A DNA stretch of 63,959 bases, filler included, from Malassezia furfur (Eukaryota), in NCBI GenBank assembly GCA_052055015.1. It is 8 parts of 8 records of this genome, joined end to end, with 100 filler letters (N's around TTAATTAATTAA, not from the genome) between each part and the next. Parts side by side here need not be neighbours in the genome. Positions count along the whole stretch, not along the records: positions 1 to 8,072 come from JBQJIT010000471.1; positions 8,173 to 16,208 come from JBQJIT010000472.1; positions 16,309 to 24,337 come from JBQJIT010000473.1; positions 24,438 to 32,459 come from JBQJIT010000474.1; positions 32,560 to 40,550 come from JBQJIT010000475.1; positions 40,651 to 48,632 come from JBQJIT010000476.1; positions 48,733 to 56,701 come from JBQJIT010000477.1; positions 56,802 to 63,959 come from JBQJIT010000507.1. The stretch is one strand, 5' to 3'. How positions within the stretch are numbered: position 1 is the first letter of the stretch; every line of letters begins with the position of its first letter. The position numbers and the translations under genes are program-made. This document shows, piece by piece, positions 1 through 59,518 of the stretch. The notes under the pieces are model-generated. The model searched no databases. It was not told the DNA's origin and worked only from the letters and a program-made list of their open reading frames with translations.

Positions 1-783
1 AGCGTGCGGCTCGGCAGCTCCTCGTCGTCCGACACCGCATTGCGCCGCGGCACGGCATGCCGCGCGCGCGTCGCGTTCCCGGGGAACAGCAGTCGCGGCT
101 TGATAGGCGAGTGCAGCATCCCCGCCTCGGTCGAAGAGCTCGTGTCGAACTCGGACCGCACCACACGTTGTCCACGACTGCGTCAGCCACATCTATACGT
201 ACAAGACAAAGAGCGCTTTGCCCGACTCTTTCGGCGGGGCGAGCGCCGCACGCACCCGCGCACGATGCGCATGGGGGCCCGTAAAGCCCACGTCGGCAGG
301 GCCGCCTTCCAGGAACGGGTTGTGTGCGGCATCGCGCACGGGGTATGAATCAAAGTGGGGGGCGTGGAAGCGCTGCGCACGGCGATACGGCCCAGGCGTA
401 TCGGGATCCGACTCAGACTCGAGCCAGGTGCCAAACACCGAGTCGCTGCCGCTGCGCGCATGGCGCGACGTGCTGGGTGGGTATCCTCGGCCCGCCGCTC
501 CACCTGGACCGTGCAGGCCCAAGCGATCGCCCATACGTCGCCCGCGCGTGCTGGGCGGCGTCAGGACGGCCGAGCGCGCAGCAGCGTGAGGGCGCGCGCG
601 TTTCGTGTGGTGCTCGGAGGCTTCGTCATCTTCGTAGTGCTCTGCGGTGTACCGTGTGAGATTGCGCTTGTCGCCCGATGGTAGCGAGACCCGCCCGCGC
701 CCCGAGGACGGCGGCGAGGGGTACGGGTCCCATACCAGCGGCGGCGCCTCGCTGCCTCCTTCGCGCGGCAGCGTGTCGGACAT
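1..783 (-). CDS. Hypothetical protein, runs off the window start; 25-nt intron at 178-202
   Basis: ATG at 783 (MSDTLPRE...). Removing gtacgtatagatgtggctgacgcag gives ...ALFV/FRGQRVV...KPRLLFP, open to position 1. Confidence 0.6.
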
Positions 784-1010
784 GCTACAACACAACAAGG
801 ACAAAGGAGAGTGACCACGGCCCTCGGGCATCGCACCTGCCTTCGACGTCGGCCCCTGCTACCCCTGCAGCAGGCTGCATATGCACGACCCGACGGGATC
901 TCGACCAATCAGCGTGCGCAGAAATGTACGCGGCACTCCACCGCGTAAAGCGGCGTGCGCGGCCTGCGGGGGGGGAGGGGGAAGGGTTGCTGGGTGTGGA
1001 GGGCTATGGA

Positions 1011-2567
1011 TCAGTCCTCGTAGCGCTTCATAAATGCGGTGTGGAACTTGATGAAGCGCTCCACGAACTCGTCGGTCGCCTTGGCCAGCACCGTCGTGCG
1101 GAAGTAGGAGTGGCTCGTGCCGTCCTCGAGCTGGACCGGCTGCTCGCCGAAGCCCGACCCAGGGATGACGCAGATGCCCGTCTCGTCGAGCAGCTCGCGG
1201 CAGTACAGCTCGTCGACCTTTTTGTCCTGCTTCTTCGCCTCCTCCCACGCCTTCTTCGGGAGGTGCAGCTGCGGGAAGAGATAGAGTGCGCCCATCGCCG
1301 GCTCGATGTGGATGCCGGGCAGCTTGCTAAACTTCTCGGCCATCGTCTCGGAGCGCTTTTCAAGCGTATCGTGGATCTTTTGCGTCTCCTTCGTGAAGAG
1401 CTCGTAGCTCGGGTCGCCCTTGCGTGGCGGCTTCACCAGCAGGTCCACGCCGATCTGCCCCTGCGTCGGCGGGCACAACGAGACGCTCACCAGCTTATTC
1501 ACCTGCGCTTCCACCTTGGGGTCGATGTTGGTCAGCTCAAAGTAGCCGCCGCGCCGGCCACACTCGCCAGAGAAGCCCTTGCTGATGCTGTGGAACGACA
1601 CGAGCTCCACACACTCGCTCATCTTGCGCTCCTCCTCGTCGCTACTCTTGCTGTAGTCGAGCAGCACCTTGCGGAACGACAAAAAGGGGCATTCGGTCTG
1701 GTACACATTGCTCTGGTACACCTCGTCCGCAAAGATCACGAGGCCCTGGTTGTATGCTTCCTTGATCACCGTTTGGATCTCCTCCTCCGACATGCACGTG
1801 CCCGTCGGGTTGCCGGGGTTGATCACCACAATTGCGCGGGGCGTCTTGCCCTGCTCCCGTGCGCGGCGGATCTGCTCGCGCACATTCTCCATCGTGGGCC
1901 GCCACTGCTGGTCCGGGTTCAGGTCGTAATGCAGCGGCTCGAGATCGAACAGCGAGAGCGCTGCCGAGTAGAGGGGGTATTGCGGGATGGGAATCAACAC
2001 AGCGTCTTGGCCCGAGCGGAACAGCGTCTGGAACAGGGTCATAATGCCCGACGAGGCGCCGGCGGTCAGGTAGATGTTCTCGATATCCTCGGGGTACCCG
2101 TCGCGCTCTTCGACGAACTCGGCGACGTGCTTGCGGACGAGCGCCACACCCTTGGACGTGGAATAGGCGCCCACGCTGCCGAACGCGTCGAGCAGCTCCC
2201 GTGCGCGCTGCTGCACATCGGTGGGGAAGAGCGCATCGCGCGTTTCCTTCGGCGCGTCAAGCAGCGCAGGGTACTCGGTGAGCGCTGCAACCTGGCGCCA
2301 GAACGTCAGCGGCGGCTGCGCAAGGTTCGGCATCTGTTGGGGGTTGCCAATGTTGGACCAGACGATCGAGTCGAATGGGAGCTTCTTCCCCTGCTCCAGC
2401 TCGGCCTCGTACTTGGCTGCCACAGCCGGGATACCTCCTCTCACGGCGTACTCTACTTTGATGGCATGGGGATTAATGTTATCCAGCGACAGCGTCTTTC
2501 CTCGTGTCGACATGGTGCGTCGAAACAAGCGCACGGGCGAGCGGAGCAGGCCGGCCCTAGCGTGCAT
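1011..2567 (-). CDS. ALT1: Alanine aminotransferase (PLP-dependent) with probable mitochondrial presequence
   Basis: Motifs VEYAVRG, NIGNPQQ, INPGNPTG, ADEVYQ, SFHSISKGFSGECGRRGGY. Arg-rich leader from ATG 2567; second in-frame ATG at 2513. Confidence 0.93.
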   Translation of the reverse strand: MHARAGLLRSPVRLFRRTMSTRGKTLSLDNINPHAIKVEYAVRGGIPAVAAKYEAELEQGKKLPFDSIVWSNIGNPQQMPNLAQPPLTFWRQVAALTEYPALLDAPKETRDALFPTDVQQRARELLDAFGSVGAYSTSKGVALVRKHVAEFVEERDGYPEDIENIYLTAGASSGIMTLFQTLFRSGQDAVLIPIPQYPLYSAALSLFDLEPLHYDLNPDQQWRPTMENVREQIRRAREQGKTPRAIVVINPGNPTGTCMSEEEIQTVIKEAYNQGLVIFADEVYQSNVYQTECPFLSFRKVLLDYSKSSDEEERKMSECVELVSFHSISKGFSGECGRRGGYFELTNIDPKVEAQVNKLVSVSLCPPTQGQIGVDLLVKPPRKGDPSYELFTKETQKIHDTLEKRSETMAEKFSKLPGIHIEPAMGALYLFPQLHLPKKAWEEAKKQDKKVDELYCRELLDETGICVIPGSGFGEQPVQLEDGTSHSYFRTTVLAKATDEFVERFIKFHTAFMKRYED

Positions 2568-2614
2568 GCGTCTCAAATAAGGCTGATTCACAGTCGCGGG
2601 CCGTGACGAAATTC

Positions 2615-56975: not shown

Positions 56976-56999
56976 CGCACGTGACGCTCCTCCACCACG

Positions 57000-58191
57000 A
57001 TGGACCGAGTGGCGAGCCGAGTGGGCCTGCGTGTCGGCAGGCGAGCGCTGCACACGTCGCGCGTGTGGGCGCGCCCCGAGCAGAGTGCGCCGCGCCCCGC
57101 GCAGCCGCGGACGCGTCTCGAGGCGCTGCGTGAGCGCCTTTCCGAAGAGTCCGGCCTGACCGTCGACGACTTTGCGCACCCCCAGCAGGCGGAGCGCATC
57201 AAGGTGGGCCGCGTGAACGACATGCGCCTGCCGTCATACATGAAGACCAATATCCCCAAAGGCGCCAACTTTGGGCGCATCAAGCGCGACCTGCGCGGCC
57301 TCGGGCTCGCGACCGTGTGCGAAGAGGCGCGGTGCCCCAACATTGGCGAGTGCTGGGGTGGCGAGGGCGGCAAGGAGAATGCCACGGCGACCATCATGCT
57401 GATGGGCGACACGTGTACGCGCGCGTGCCGCTTCTGTGCGGTGAAGACGAGCCGCACACCCGCGGCGCTCGACCCGCACGAGCCCGAAAACACCGCCGAG
57501 GCCATCTCGCGCTGGGGCCTCGGCTACATTGTGCTCACCTCGGTGGACCGCGACGACCTGCCGGACGGCGGCGCGGCGCACATCGCGCAGACCGTGTCCA
57601 AGATCAAGCAAAAGGCGCCGCACATCCTCGTCGAGGCGCTGGTGCCCGACTTTGGCGGCGACGTCGATGCCGTCGCGCAGGTGGCGCGGAGCGGCCTGGA
57701 TGTGTACGCGCACAACGTCGAGACCGTGGAGCGCACCACGCCGTTTGTGCGTGACCGGCGCGCCAAGTACCGCCAGAGTCTCGCGATGCTGCGCCACGCC
57801 AAGGAGACCAAGCCGGAGCTGGTGACCAAGACGTCGATCATGCTCGGGTGCGGCGAGGCGGACCACGAGGTGGAGCAGACGCTGCACGACCTGCGCGAGG
57901 CCGACGTGGACGTCGTGACGTTTGGGCAGTACATGCGGCCAACCAAGCGGCACATGAAGGTGTCCGAGTACGTCACCCCGGAAAAGTTTGCCGAGTGGCA
58001 GCGCCGCGCCGAGGCGCTCGGCTTCTTGTACGTGGCGAGCGGGCCGCTGGTGCGCAGCAGCTACAAGGCCGGCGAGTTCTTTGTACGTGTGCCTACTCAC
58101 CCAGATCGAAAACGTGATCAAGAAGCGCCGCGCCGCGGGCTCCGCCATCGAGGCCCACGCGCTCGATGCACTCAAGCAGCAGCAGTTGTAG
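57000..58191 (+). CDS. LIP5: Mitochondrial lipoyl synthase; 22-nt intron 58083-58104
   Basis: [43 protein letters not shown]. Confidence 0.96.
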
Positions 58192-59518
58192 CACGTAGGC
58201 GGAGCGCAAGTTGGTGGAAGAGGTGCTCGGCGCACGATGCATACGTCACGCGGTCGTGCCCGTACGTCCAGCGTACGTGGAGCGCGCCGCGCGCAAACGA
58301 CGCCTCGATGGCCAGCAGCGGCCGTGCGCCGTGCGCGGCCTGGTCGGTTTCGAGGCGCGCGCGCTTGCGCCGCGCGCCGCGCGTCCAGCACGCGGTGTAG
58401 AGGTCGACGGCGACGCACTCGGCACCGTCGGCGGTGCGCGGCGCATGCACTACGGCATGCTCCTGCGGCAGCGTCGGCAGCGCCAGCAGGAACGCGTGCA
58501 CGGAGCATGTCGCTCCTGCGTCGTCCACGAGGCGGGGGAATGCGCGCGATAGCGTGCACGGCGGCGGCGCCAGGTCCGGCACCCCACGCGCCACTGCGTC
58601 CGGCGCGCGGCTCCCGCGGAACGACCACGCGACCGCCCAGCGCTTCGTGTGGCCCTGGACGAGCGGCGTGACGCAGTAGTTGGAGATGCGCGCGCGGCGC
58701 ACCGCACGCACCAGCGTATGCACCGTCGCGAGCTTGCCGAGCATCGTCGTGTACCAGCTAGGTTAGCATGCAACGTACACAATCTGTTCGCGCCATCGCA
58801 GGCTCTCTTCCAGCAGCTGCTGAACCAGCGCCGCCTCGCCGCCGGGCGTGTACATCTCGGCCGCCTGGCCGGCCGTCCAGGCACGCGGCATGCGCTTGGC
58901 CGCCGAGGATGCGGCACGCTCCGCCTCGGATGCATAAAAGGGGGGATTGAGCATGGTGAAGTGGAAAGCGGGCGCCGCGGCCGCCGTCTCAGCGAGGCCC
59001 ACGTCATCCAGCAGGGGCCCGTGCGTGTGCACGAGCGTGATGCGCTCGCGCAGCGCCAGTGCATTGGCCGGAAGGTTGTTCGCGGGGTCGTCCACCACTT
59101 GGCGTGCGTGTGCAAGTGCCGCCGCGTCCACGTCGGTGCCGACCATCGTCCAGCGCGGCTGCTGCGCACACACGAGGCAGGCGTACACCGCGATGCTGCC
59201 CGTGCCTATGTCGATACCCCGTGCGCCGTCCAGCGGCGCGCCATCAGCGGGGTGCAGTGCGCGAACCAGGTCCTCAATCCACAGCACGTAGTTGATGCGG
59301 TTCGGCAGCGCGGGGCACAGACGGTCGGGCGCCAGCGTCGCGTGTACCCCGAAATCCTCCCGCAGGAGCGCCTCGGTCACGGCGCGCTGTGCGCACGGAT
59401 CGTCCCACGCGACCGATGCGTGGCCGTCACGTATGGTGACATACTGGGCCAACTTCGTATCGCGCTTCGCCAGCGCGCCGAGGTCCGGCGGGCGACGGTA
59501 GGCATTGCGGGGATGCAT
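58172..59518 (-). CDS. METTL16: METTL16/RlmF-family RNA N6-adenine methyltransferase (U6 snRNA m6A type); 21-nt intron 58758-58778
   Basis: [43 protein letters not shown], spliced [24 protein letters not shown]. Confidence 0.9.

What the first reader, a model, noticed from the sequence alone, without database searches (positions are those of the whole stretch)
178..58778. Miniature spliceosomal intron system: modal length 21-22 nt
Seen: 37 GT-AG introns located by hand. Lengths are 21 nt (x8), 22 (x11), 23 (x4), 24 (x5), 25 (x2), 26, 29 (x3), 32, 36 and 40. Many are required to restore highly conserved proteins: Ran KYI/ATL (41603-41624), LIP5 (58083-58104), malic enzyme NK/GTG (49075-49096), NIPA (29945-29966). 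Three 21-mers carry in-frame stops (DDB1 36407-36427, METTL16-like 58758-58778, and 50981-51001). The layout is GTRCGT-N(6-9)-CTNAY-N(1-3)-YAG, so the branch A sits near intron position 16-17 and about 5 nt from the 3' end. Established: introns this short are known from ciliates, chlorarachniophyte nucleomorphs and microsporidia, and yeast/human spliceosomes need a much longer 5'SS-branch distance. Malassezia is already known for short introns, so the novelty is the degree. Inference: an adapted spliceosome forming a lariat loop of about 16 nt, with a hard floor near 21 nt.
Basis: partly seen in the sequence, partly recalled or inferred. Interest (0 to 1): 0.85.

Follow-up and report, generated by a model that had tools for sequence, protein, structure and literature searches.

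The report
Ultra-short 21-25 nt introns in Malassezia
This stretch of a Malassezia skin-yeast genome is peppered with real spliceosomal introns, most only 21-25 bases long and made almost entirely of splicing signals; the genus is already known for very short introns, though their exact architecture seems not to have been written up.

Summary
I re-derived 38 GT-AG introns of 21-40 nt: 21 nt x9, 22 x11, 23 x4, 24 x5, 25 x2, then 26, 29 x3, 32, 36 and 40. The median is 22 and the mean 24.

- **Strand:** 25 of those 26 lie on the strand with the better coding score.
- **Homology:** Pfam profile coordinates, PDB alignments and Malassezia orthologues abut exactly across the junctions.
- **Stop-free 3n introns:** six of the eleven are exact 7- or 8-residue gaps in orthologues.
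- **Anatomy:** the branch A sits at intron position 16-20 in 32 of 38, and 5 nt from the 3' end in 27 of 38. No real case has fewer than 6 nt between the donor hexamer and CTNAY, so the floor is 21 nt.

The organism is a Malassezia close to M. brasiliensis and M. furfur. The window is eight ~8-kb contigs joined by linkers.

Novelty is limited. M. sympodialis has a published mean intron length of 30 bp with RNA-seq support, M. restricta annotators set minimum intron lengths of 15-20, and M. brasiliensis gene models already splice out such 21-22 nt introns. An "adapted spliceosome" remains untested, and RNA data were not available for this window.

The parts
178..202 (-). 25-nt intron, GTACGT..CTGAC.CAG
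   Evidence: Joins the frame of ORF 196-858 to that of ORF 6-182. Motif present. No homologue test.
2794..2818 (-). 25-nt intron in an RFC small-subunit gene
   Evidence: RFC_C profile 1-71 | 64-92 on the two ORF pieces. Found by the motif-blind parse.
3686..3708 (-). 23-nt intron (GTACGC donor) in the RFC gene
   Evidence: Found by the motif-blind parse. The spliced product is open and 353 aa long.
10813..10838 (+). 26-nt intron in a NAP-family gene
   Evidence: Motif-blind parse. Read-through stops after 9 codons.
16781..16820 (-). 40-nt intron in an Arf GTPase gene
   Evidence: Arf profile 45-74 | 70-173.
16903..16931 (-). 29-nt intron in the Arf gene
   Evidence: Motif-blind parse. The spliced product is a 183-aa open Arf-like protein.
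16994..17022 (-). 29-nt intron in the Arf gene
   Evidence: Motif-blind parse. Spliced product as above.
24127..24147 (-). 21-nt stop-free intron in SPO11 (gene cut by the contig end)
   Evidence: Removal gives ..TQRDMFYRDP.. while retention inserts 7 residues there. That this is the catalytic-tyrosine motif is recalled, not tested.
24215..24236 (-). 22-nt intron in SPO11
   Evidence: Strict motif. Splicing keeps the upstream frame open. No homologue test.
24645..24665 (-). 21-nt stop-free intron in a CAP59-type mannosyltransferase gene
   Evidence: Its 7 residues (YVFLSHS) are an exact gap in 13 of 13 homologues aligned, inside the motif G.YDT|WV.RD.
27498..27518 (-). 21-nt stop-free intron in a membrane-protein gene (27213-28310)
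   Evidence: VRGLLTQ is an exact 7-residue gap in the M. brasiliensis (P0123) and M. furfur (P0124) proteins.
27826..27847 (-). 22-nt intron, length uncertain
   Evidence: Strict motif. In-frame alternative donors would give 34 or 52 nt. The M. brasiliensis model matches the 52-nt form and the M. furfur model is close to the 34-nt form.
27963..27985 (-). 23-nt intron, same gene
   Evidence: The spliced model is collinear with P0123 and P0124 across the junction.
28858..28879 (-). 22-nt intron in gene 28561-29542
   Evidence: The spliced model is collinear with M. brasiliensis P0128 and with P0129. The unspliced ORF calls P0126 and P0127 lose the frame here.
29219..29239 (-). 21-nt stop-free intron, same gene
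   Evidence: VRGPLTQ is an exact 7-residue gap in P0128 and P0129.
29945..29966 (-). 22-nt intron in a NIPA Mg transporter gene
   Evidence: Profile 1-240 | 241-293, abutting exactly at the splice sites.
30968..30989 (+). 22-nt intron in an oxysterol-binding-protein gene
   Evidence: Strict motif. Parse. No homologue test.
31027..31048 (+). 22-nt intron (GTACGC donor), same gene
   Evidence: Parse. No homologue test.
31178..31200 (+). 23-nt intron, same gene
   Evidence: Motif-blind parse. Read-through meets a stop inside the intron.
32415..32437 (+). 23-nt intron in a TRAPPC13/Trs65-like gene, 22 nt from a contig end
   Evidence: Strict motif. Read-through meets a stop inside the intron.
36407..36427 (-). 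21-nt intron in DDB1 with an in-frame TAA
   Evidence: The stop was reported. The same frame is open for 218 codons upstream and 1108 downstream. Gene identity.
37405..37426 (-). 22-nt intron (GTAGGT donor) in a small TPR-protein gene
   Evidence: Read-through stops at once. The spliced model is open.
37522..37545 (-). 24-nt stop-free intron (GTATGT donor), TPR gene
   Evidence: Removal gives an uninterrupted TPR-like repeat. That reading rests on recalled TPR consensus, not on a homologue test.
37669..37692 (-). 24-nt stop-free intron, TPR gene
   Evidence: Strict motif. Model. No homologue test.
40763..40794 (-). 32-nt intron in a small ORF next to a contig end
   Evidence: Motif-blind parse. 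Read-through meets a stop inside the intron.
41603..41624 (-). 22-nt intron in Ran/GSP1
   Evidence: Ras profile 5-32 | 28-160. The spliced product is a 216-aa Ran.
41700..41728 (-). 29-nt intron (GTAGGT donor) in Ran/GSP1
   Evidence: Motif-blind parse. Spliced Ran.
44154..44175 (+). 22-nt intron in a protein-kinase gene
   Evidence: Motif-blind parse. Flanking coding scores are 20.9 and 21.4.
46371..46406 (-). 36-nt intron in eIF4E with an in-frame stop
   Evidence: IF4E profile 1-96 | 95-132. Stop inside the intron.
47289..47312 (+). 24-nt stop-free intron near the 5' end of a repetitive secreted-type protein gene
   Evidence: Strict motif only. Weakly supported.
48418..48441 (-). 24-nt stop-free intron in a short proline-rich ORF
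   Evidence: Strict motif only. Coding evidence is poor. This is the weakest member.
49075..49096 (+). 22-nt intron in the malic enzyme gene
   Evidence: PDB homology begins at the acceptor. Exon 1 ends ..LRDVFTNK.
50981..51001 (+). 21-nt intron with an in-frame TAA in gene ~50836-51523
   Evidence: The same frame is open on both sides and reads VRA*LTQ through the intron.
54211..54231 (-). 21-nt stop-free intron in the HRQ1 helicase gene
   Evidence: VRAPLTQ is an exact 7-residue gap in annotated orthologues.
54560..54583 (-). 24-nt stop-free intron in HRQ1
   Evidence: An exact 8-residue gap in annotated orthologues.
54679..54699 (-). 21-nt stop-free intron in HRQ1
   Evidence: VRRPLTQ is an exact 7-residue gap in annotated orthologues.
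58083..58104 (+). 22-nt intron in the lipoyl synthase gene (LIP5)
   Evidence: Homology to human LIAS ends at the donor. Exon 2.
58758..58778 (-). 21-nt intron with an in-frame stop in a METTL16-family methyltransferase gene
   Evidence: Methyltransf_10 profile 5-254 | 252-298, with no room for 7 extra residues. Stop inside the intron.

Best explanation
These are ordinary major-type (U2-dependent) GT-AG spliceosomal introns of a Malassezia yeast, shrunk almost to bare signal. Each has three parts:
- a 6-nt donor, GTACGT in 27 of 38 and GTGCGT in 6;
- a GC-rich spacer of at least 6 nt;
- a branch box R-CT-N-A-C, followed 4-5 nt later by CAG.

The shown steps are these. Removing the introns restores reading frames and conserved protein sequence. 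They lie on the sense strand of genes. Length, branch position and branch-to-acceptor distance are tightly fixed.

The inferred steps are these. The A of CTNAY is the branch nucleotide, which gives a lariat loop of 16-20 nt. The first YAG after it is taken as the acceptor. The 21-nt floor reflects the minimum linker, about 4-5 nt, that lets the donor/U6 helix and the branch/U2 helix sit together at the catalytic centre. With so short a linker, U1 and U2 snRNPs can hardly occupy the intron in the usual cross-intron arrangement, so early assembly is probably modified or sequential.
For: - Motif enrichment: 26 hits against 0.14 expected.
- A gene parse that knew only GT..AG and codon usage proposed 18 introns of 40 nt or less. 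Of these, 15 carry the full donor + CTNAY + YAG signature.
- 25 of 26 strict motifs lie on the strand with the better coding score.
- Pfam profile coordinates abut across six introns: NIPA, Ran, Arf, eIF4E, RFC and METTL16-like.
- PDB alignments start or stop exactly at splice sites in malic enzyme and lipoyl synthase.
- Six stop-free 3n introns are exact 7- or 8-residue gaps in orthologues.
- M. brasiliensis deposited proteins equal my spliced models across 21- and 22-nt introns.
- In one relative, one protein (P0129) has the spliced form. A second protein (P0131), identical over the first 101 residues, reads into the intron.
- Spacer lengths jump from 0 real cases at k<=5 to 12 at k=6.
- The curated M. 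sympodialis introns, mean 30 bp, are 99% supported by RNA-seq (PMC5389616, Table 2).
Against: - No RNA from this organism could be examined.
- The branch nucleotide is assigned by consensus only.
- About eight introns rest on motif plus frame alone, and two of these (47289, 48418) on the motif alone.
- One intron (27826) may be 34 or 52 nt long.
- The floor rests on 38 introns from about 63 kb.
- The catalogue is partly motif-guided, so atypical introns (long, in UTRs, or with weak signals) could have been missed.
- The steric argument for modified assembly is reasoning, not data.
Confidence: 0.92

Rival explanations
1. Some of the stop-free 3n elements (21 or 24 nt) are not constitutively removed. 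They would be retained in part of the mRNA pool and give protein isoforms with 7-8 extra residues, that is, regulated or leaky intron retention without nonsense-mediated decay.
For: - 11 of the 15 introns whose length is a multiple of three have no in-frame stop.
- 3n lengths are not depleted: 15 of 37, p = 0.38 against one third.
- Phase-0 copies read as a harmless V-R-x-x-L-T-Q.
Against: - In six tested cases the extra residues are absent from every annotated orthologue.
- They fall inside conserved motifs, for example G.YDT|WV.RD in CAP59 and the HRQ1 N-terminal region. A retained form would probably be defective.
Confidence: 0.15
2. The true introns are longer. They would use donors or acceptors further away, and the 21-25 nt units would be only the 3' parts of larger introns.
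For: - Intron 27826 has in-frame upstream donors that give 34 or 52 nt, and two public gene models of relatives favour those.
- My own parses sometimes preferred 45-57 nt versions at 37501-37545 and 37659-37715.
Against: - Where profile or orthologue coordinates exist, they abut at the short sites with no residues missing.
- The longer versions delete conserved sequence, such as the TPR repeat.
- The alternative donors are poor matches to the GTRCGT used 33 times in 38.
Confidence: 0.04
3. The elements are not introns at all. They would be a short repeated or mobile sequence, or an assembly artefact, that merely resembles splice signals.
For: The copies are highly uniform (about 27 bits of information in 21 nt). 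The window is a concatenation of short contigs.
Against: - 23 of 38 change the reading frame and four more carry stops, yet the flanking sequence encodes conserved proteins in the joined frame.
- The spacers differ from copy to copy.
- The same positions hold introns in other Malassezia species.
- Strand bias is 25 of 26.
Confidence: 0.01

Closest known systems
Curated intron set of Malassezia sympodialis ATCC 42132 (Zhu et al. 2017, PMC5389616; main-text passages and Table 2 seen, supplement not readable)
   Same: Same genus, with similar gene density (0.58 genes/kb) and about one intron per gene. It has 5350 introns with a mean of 30 bp, and 99% are supported by RNA-seq.
   Different: Here the mean is 24 and the mode 21-22 nt. 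The passages I saw give no length histogram, branch position, floor or 3n analysis. The intron-size figure is in a supplement that I could not open.
Tiny introns of the ciliate Stentor coeruleus (PMC9505925; passages seen)
   Same: A very narrow length distribution. The presumed branch A sits at a fixed place 5 nt from the 3' end: position 10 of 15 there, position 16 of 21 here.
   Different: - Stentor introns are 15-16 nt, 76% A+U, and have no strong branch consensus.
- Here the spacer is 72% G+C, the donor and branch boxes are near-invariant, and the loop is 16-20 nt rather than 10-11.
Ultra-short introns of myxozoans and dicyemids (PMC13644364; abstract and passages seen)
   Same: Median lengths are 22-27 bp, and shortening to under 30 bp evolved independently.
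   Different: [quoted passage not shown] That paper's list of lineages with introns under 30 bp (ciliates, microsporidia, dicyemids) does not mention Malassezia.
Human and other long-linker spliceosomal introns (PMC11291888; abstract seen)
   Same: The same GT..branch A..AG logic, and presumably the same snRNAs.
   Different: Human splicing fails below about 46 nt between donor and branch point. Here that distance is 15-19 nt in 32 of 38 introns.

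Membership tests
Major (U2-type) GT-AG spliceosomal introns | GT at the 5' end and AG at the 3' end | tested here: met
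   38 of 38, with CAG x37 and TAG x1 (plus 178-202). The catalogue was built on GT..AG, so this is a condition of entry rather than a test.
Major (U2-type) GT-AG spliceosomal introns | Donor consensus of the GTRNGT kind, matching U1 and U6 | tested here: met
   GTACGT 27, GTGCGT 6, GTACGC 2, GTAGGT 2, GTATGT 1. 15 of the 18 introns of 40 nt or less chosen by a parse blind to this motif have it. The snRNAs themselves were not seen.
Major (U2-type) GT-AG spliceosomal introns | Branch-point box (yUnAy) a short way upstream of the acceptor | tested here: met
   CTCAC 15, CTGAC 14, CTTAC 3, CTAAC 3, CTCAT 2, CTAAT 1. A purine sits at -4 in 34 of 37. This is partly a selection criterion. Independent support comes from the motif-blind parse.
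Major (U2-type) GT-AG spliceosomal introns | Removal restores the reading frame and collinearity with homologous proteins | tested here: met
   18 of the 38 were tested against a profile, a solved structure or orthologues, and all 18 fit. Four of the 38 carry in-frame stops within an otherwise open frame. About 16 rest on frame, in-frame stop and/or motif only.
Major (U2-type) GT-AG spliceosomal introns | Excision from RNA as a lariat | not testable with these tools
The only indirect hint is the spliced against unspliced protein forms in a relative.
Minor (U12-type) introns | Extended donor of the RTATCCTT kind | tested here: not met
   None of the 38 donors fits. The consensus itself is recalled.
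Ultra-short-intron lineages (modal length under 30 nt: ciliates, microsporidia, dicyemids, myxozoans) | Narrow length distribution with mode or median under 30 nt | tested here: met
   Median 22, and 31 of 38 are 25 nt or shorter.
Ultra-short-intron lineages (modal length under 30 nt: ciliates, microsporidia, dicyemids, myxozoans) | Weakened or A+U-rich signals, as in Stentor and myxozoans | tested here: not met
   The signals are near-invariant and the spacer is 72% G+C. It works like those systems in length but not in composition.
Ultra-short-intron lineages (modal length under 30 nt: ciliates, microsporidia, dicyemids, myxozoans) | Shortage of stop-free introns whose length is a multiple of three (reported for Paramecium; recalled, no paper read here) | tested here: not met
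   15 of 37 are 3n (p = 0.38 against one third), and 11 of these have no in-frame stop. The sample is small.

The most novel reading that the evidence does not exclude
The M. furfur/M. brasiliensis branch of Malassezia has pushed a full-consensus fungal intron to its physical limit. The limit is a 21-nt, about 27-bit 'all-signal' intron whose donor and branch boxes are only 4-5 nt apart.

The textbook cross-intron U1-U2 prespliceosome cannot form on such an intron, so these yeasts would use a modified early assembly route. Stop-free 3n introns are not avoided, which would also imply near-perfect splicing fidelity.

Malassezia can be cultured and transformed. It would therefore be the first genetically tractable system for asking what sets the minimum size of a spliceosomal intron.
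Probability: 0.3. Interest if true: 0.65.

Novelty: new member of a known kind. Interest (0 to 1): 0.42.

Why it matters
How short an intron a complete spliceosome can remove is an open mechanistic question. The known extreme cases sit in ciliates, nucleomorphs and parasites, which are hard to manipulate. Many of those, such as Stentor and the myxozoans, also have weak splicing signals.

This case is different. A culturable and transformable yeast shows a sharp floor at 21 nt, a branch point at +16, and strong conserved signals. The constraint could therefore be tested directly by shortening the spacer in a reporter.

There is also a practical side. Introns of 21-25 nt sit at or below the default minimum intron size of common aligners and gene finders, which explains conflicting published averages:
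- 76-79 bp for M. globosa in PMC4634964, Table 2;
- 65 falling to 30 bp for M. sympodialis in PMC5389616.

Public gene models for relatives are also discordant in this very region.

Tried and rejected
**Data that could not be obtained**
- The whole genome of the window is not held, so no snRNA or spliceosome inventory was possible.
- The supplement of PMC5389616, which holds the intron-size figure, could not be read.
- Xu et al. 2007 (PMC2141845) is not held.

**Searches that gave little**
- A metagenome scan with an HRQ1 alignment returned 80 loci, of which only one (L014, 59% identity, GC 0.55) looks like a Malassezia. The rest are 32-44% identical and were not examined further; I took them for helicases of other organisms.
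- L014 has four motif introns of 23-26 nt. It lacks HRQ1 introns 2 and 3. This is too little to describe the genus.
- A PDB search with the DDB1 N-terminus, read through the intron with TAA=X, found nothing.
- Three look-ups in the scan's earlier notes gave nothing relevant.

**Gene-parse output rejected**
- Long 'introns' of 45-540 nt proposed by my own parses were rejected. They bridge separate genes or antisense ORFs, nest a shorter consensus intron, or merely extend an ORF upstream. An example of the last is 36886-36936 in DDB1, where a start at MLWLSE.. needs no intron.
- A 19-nt candidate (58226-58244) and 17-19 nt motif hits were rejected. They lack a branch box or are nested inside 21-23 nt introns.

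**Literature searches**
- I found no paper in the held library that gives a length histogram, a branch position or a floor for Malassezia introns.
- Subscription journals and unreadable supplements may hold one.

Full report
**What the window is.** The sequence is G+C-rich, about 0.61-0.72 per 4-kb window. It is not one chromosomal stretch. Fourteen runs of 44 N flank seven copies of TTAATTAATTAA. They divide the window into eight pieces of 8072, 8036, 8029, 8022, 7991, 7982 and 7969 nt, plus a final 7158 nt cut by the window end. The pieces are short contigs joined in order of length, so genes at the linkers (SPO11, CAP59, PRP6 and a SEN1-like gene) are truncated. The case therefore rests on sequence and comparison, not on RNA.

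**Organism.** An HRQ1-type helicase ORF finds M. yamatoensis (72%), M. vespertilionis (62%), Malassezia sp. CBS 17886 and M. nana as its best named relatives, followed by smut fungi. Two faster-evolving genes find M. brasiliensis at 88% and 87%, and one of them M. furfur at 78%. The source is therefore a Malassezia near M. brasiliensis and M. furfur. I count about 37 genes in about 63 kb. That is the density reported for M. sympodialis, 0.58 genes/kb (PMC5389616, Table 2).

**Is the pattern more than chance?**
In 50 dinucleotide-preserving shuffles it occurred 0.14 +/- 0.35 times, with a maximum of 1.
- Of the 26 hits, 25 lie on the strand with the better codon-usage score (p = 8e-7). The exception, 48418, lies in a proline-rich ORF of poor coding score.
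- A dynamic-programming gene parse that knew only codon usage, ATG, stops and GT..AG proposed 18 introns of 40 nt or less. Of these, 15 carry the full donor, CTNAY and YAG signature. The other three lie in low-scoring or antisense models.

**Catalogue.** Motif scans and parses give 38 introns: 21 nt x9, 22 x11, 23 x4, 24 x5, 25 x2, 26, 29 x3, 32, 36 and 40. The median is 22, the mean 24.0, and 31 of 38 are 25 nt or shorter.
- Donors: GTACGT 27, GTGCGT 6, GTACGC 2, GTAGGT 2, GTATGT 1.
- Branch boxes: CTCAC 15, CTGAC 14, CTTAC 3, CTAAC 3, CTCAT 2, CTAAT 1. A purine precedes the box in 34 of 37.
- Acceptors: CAG 37, TAG 1.
- Exon flanks show no consensus.
- The nine 21-mers carry about 27 bits of information.

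**Do they interrupt real genes in the way claimed?**

Pfam profile coordinates on the separate ORF pieces abut across six introns:

| Gene | Profile coordinates | Intron |
|---|---|---|
| NIPA | 1-240 \| 241-293 | 29945-29966 |
| Ran (Ras profile) | 5-32 \| 28-160 | 41603-41624 |
| Arf | 45-74 \| 70-173 | 16781-16820 |
| eIF4E | 1-96 \| 95-132 | 46371-46406 |
| RFC (RFC_C profile) | 1-71 \| 64-92 | 2794-2818 |
| METTL16-like (Methyltransf_10) | 5-254 \| 252-298 | 58758-58778 |

The small overlaps in these coordinates are chance extensions of the match into the intron.

- Malic enzyme homology to solved structures begins at ORF residue 92-96, which is the acceptor at 49097. The other frame upstream ends ..LRDVFTNK.
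- Lipoyl synthase homology to human LIAS ends at ..YKAGEFF, exactly at the donor at 58083 and 7 residues short of the chain's end. The next exon reads IENVIKKRR...
- The spliced Ran is a complete 216-residue protein. The spliced Arf, RFC, NAP and eIF4E models are open.
- Three 21-mers and the 36-mer carry in-frame stops inside frames that are otherwise open. The gene at 33079-36984 is indeed DDB1.

**The harder case: introns whose length is a multiple of three and that have no stop.** There are 15 introns of 3n length. Eleven have no in-frame stop, so frame alone cannot show they are introns. Six were tested against homologues and all six passed.
- The three in HRQ1 are exact gaps of 7, 8 and 7 residues in annotated orthologues from Malassezia to Coprinopsis.
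- The one in CAP59 is an exact 7-residue gap in 13 of 13 homologues, inside a conserved motif.
- Those at 27498 and 29219 are exact gaps in the M. brasiliensis proteins, and at 27498 also in the M. furfur protein.
- For SPO11 (24127) and the TPR gene (37522, 37669), removal restores motifs that I recognise from memory. This is weaker evidence.
- Two more (47289, 48418) rest on the motif alone.

3n lengths are not depleted: 15 of 37, p = 0.38.

**Evidence from relatives.**
- Naive ORF calls from relatives read through the same introns as V-R-x-x-L-T-Q. P0002 does so in HRQ1, P0125 (only 46% identical) in the gene at 27213-28310, and P0126 and P0127 in the next gene. Intron positions, and nearly the intron sequence itself, are therefore shared across species.
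- In one relative, protein P0129 has both introns removed. P0131 is identical over the first 101 residues but runs into the first intron. The simplest reading is a spliced transcript alongside genomic or unspliced sequence. The nature of those source assemblies is not known to me.
- A more distant Malassezia-like metagenome contig (L014, GC 0.55) has motif introns of 23-26 nt with more varied donors, and lacks HRQ1 introns 2 and 3. Intron content therefore differs within the genus.

**Anatomy.**
- The last CTNAY places the presumed branch A at intron position 16 (12 cases), 17 (9), 18 (4), 19 (6), 20 (1), or 22-30 (6).
- The branch A is 5 nt from the 3' end in 27 cases, 6 nt in 6, and 7-11 nt in 5.
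- The spacer between donor hexamer and CTNAY has 12 cases at 6 nt, 9 at 7, 5 at 8, 6 at 9 and 1 at 10. All six hits with 0-5 nt are either nested inside a longer consensus intron or isolated chance matches.
- None of my parses, which allowed introns down to 10 nt, kept an intron under 21 nt in a credible model.
- The spacer is 72% G+C.

**How it most likely works.**
- Shown: removal restores genes, and the geometry is fixed.
- Inferred: these are U2-type introns recognised by intron definition. The A of CTNAY branches to G1 and makes a 16-20 nt loop. The first YAG after the branch is used as acceptor.
- In a 21-mer, the donor box (positions 1-6) and the stretch that should pair with U2 (about positions 11-17) leave a linker of only 4-5 nt. 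I take this to be the physical floor.
- In human cells the minimal productive donor-to-branch distance is 46 nt, ascribed to space needed for the U1/U2 complex (PMC11291888, abstract). A Malassezia spliceosome must therefore either assemble U1 and U2 differently or hand over very early.

**What is already known.**
- A review states that Malassezia genes contain 'very short introns' (PMC7426719, passage).
- The curated M. sympodialis set has 5350 introns with a mean of 30 bp, 99% with RNA-seq support (PMC5389616, Table 2).
- M. restricta annotators set minimum intron lengths of 20 and 15 (PMC6473144, passage).
- Deposited M. brasiliensis proteins already reflect 21- and 22-nt introns.
- Automated annotations gave averages of 76-79 bp for M. 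globosa (PMC4634964, Table 2).
- A 2026 survey of introns under 30 bp names ciliates, microsporidia and dicyemids, but not Malassezia (PMC13644364, passages).
- In ten full-text searches I found no account of the mode, the floor, the branch position or the 3n content in Malassezia. The one figure likely to show the length histogram is in a supplement I could not open.

**Verdict.** The phenomenon belongs to a known kind, ultra-short spliceosomal introns, and to a genus already known for short introns. What is new is a quantitative description: mode 21-22, floor 21, branch A at +16 and 5 nt from the end, strong G+C-rich signals, and no avoidance of stop-free 3n lengths. The other new element is the suggestion that a tractable yeast could serve to study the minimum intron size.

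Noticed in passing
window 8073-8172, 16209-16308, 24338-24437, 32460-32559, 40551-40650, 48633-48732, 56702-56801: Each block is N44 + TTAATTAATTAA + N44, a linker with stops in all six frames. The eight pieces between the blocks decrease in length from 8072 to 7969 nt. The window is therefore a concatenation of short contigs, not a contiguous locus, and gene order across linkers means nothing.
   Followed up: yes
window 63006-63597 (-): An RNase MRP RNA gene: Rfam RF00030, 61.4 bits against a gathering score of 50, with a full-length model match. It was the only Rfam hit in the window.
   Followed up: no
window 24127-24147, 24645-24665, 27498-27518, 29219-29239, 37522-37545, 37669-37692, 47289-47312, 48418-48441, 54211-54231, 54560-54583, 54679-54699: Eleven introns have a length that is a multiple of three and no in-frame stop, so retention would escape nonsense-mediated decay. 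Phase-0 21-mers all read V-R-x-x-L-T-Q. 3n lengths are not depleted (15 of 37), unlike what I recall for Paramecium.
   Followed up: partly
window 27826-27877 (-) and HRQ1 51520-54888 (-): Public gene models of relatives disagree with each other around these tiny introns. The M. brasiliensis and M. furfur models choose different donors at 27826. The M. yamatoensis HRQ1 model starts late and drops a conserved block around the third intron. Annotation of this genus seems error-prone at introns of 21-25 nt.
   Followed up: partly
window 54633-56701 (+) and 58172-59518 (-): Two genes that bear on splicing lie in the window: a PRP6/PRP1 tri-snRNP protein gene (cut by a contig end) and a METTL16-family RNA methyltransferase gene. 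As I recall, relatives of the latter methylate the U6 ACAGAGA box, opposite donor position +4, and that position is C in 35 of 38 introns here. No link was tested.
   Followed up: no
L014:9569-10366 (+): In a more distant Malassezia-like metagenome contig, the HRQ1 gene runs uninterrupted across the positions of the window's second and third introns. Introns have therefore been gained or lost within the genus.
   Followed up: partly
window 23196-24337 (-): A SPO11 gene (TP6A_N and Toprim domains) with at least two tiny introns. A multi-intron SPO11 was also reported for M. sympodialis (PMC3560662, passage).
   Followed up: no
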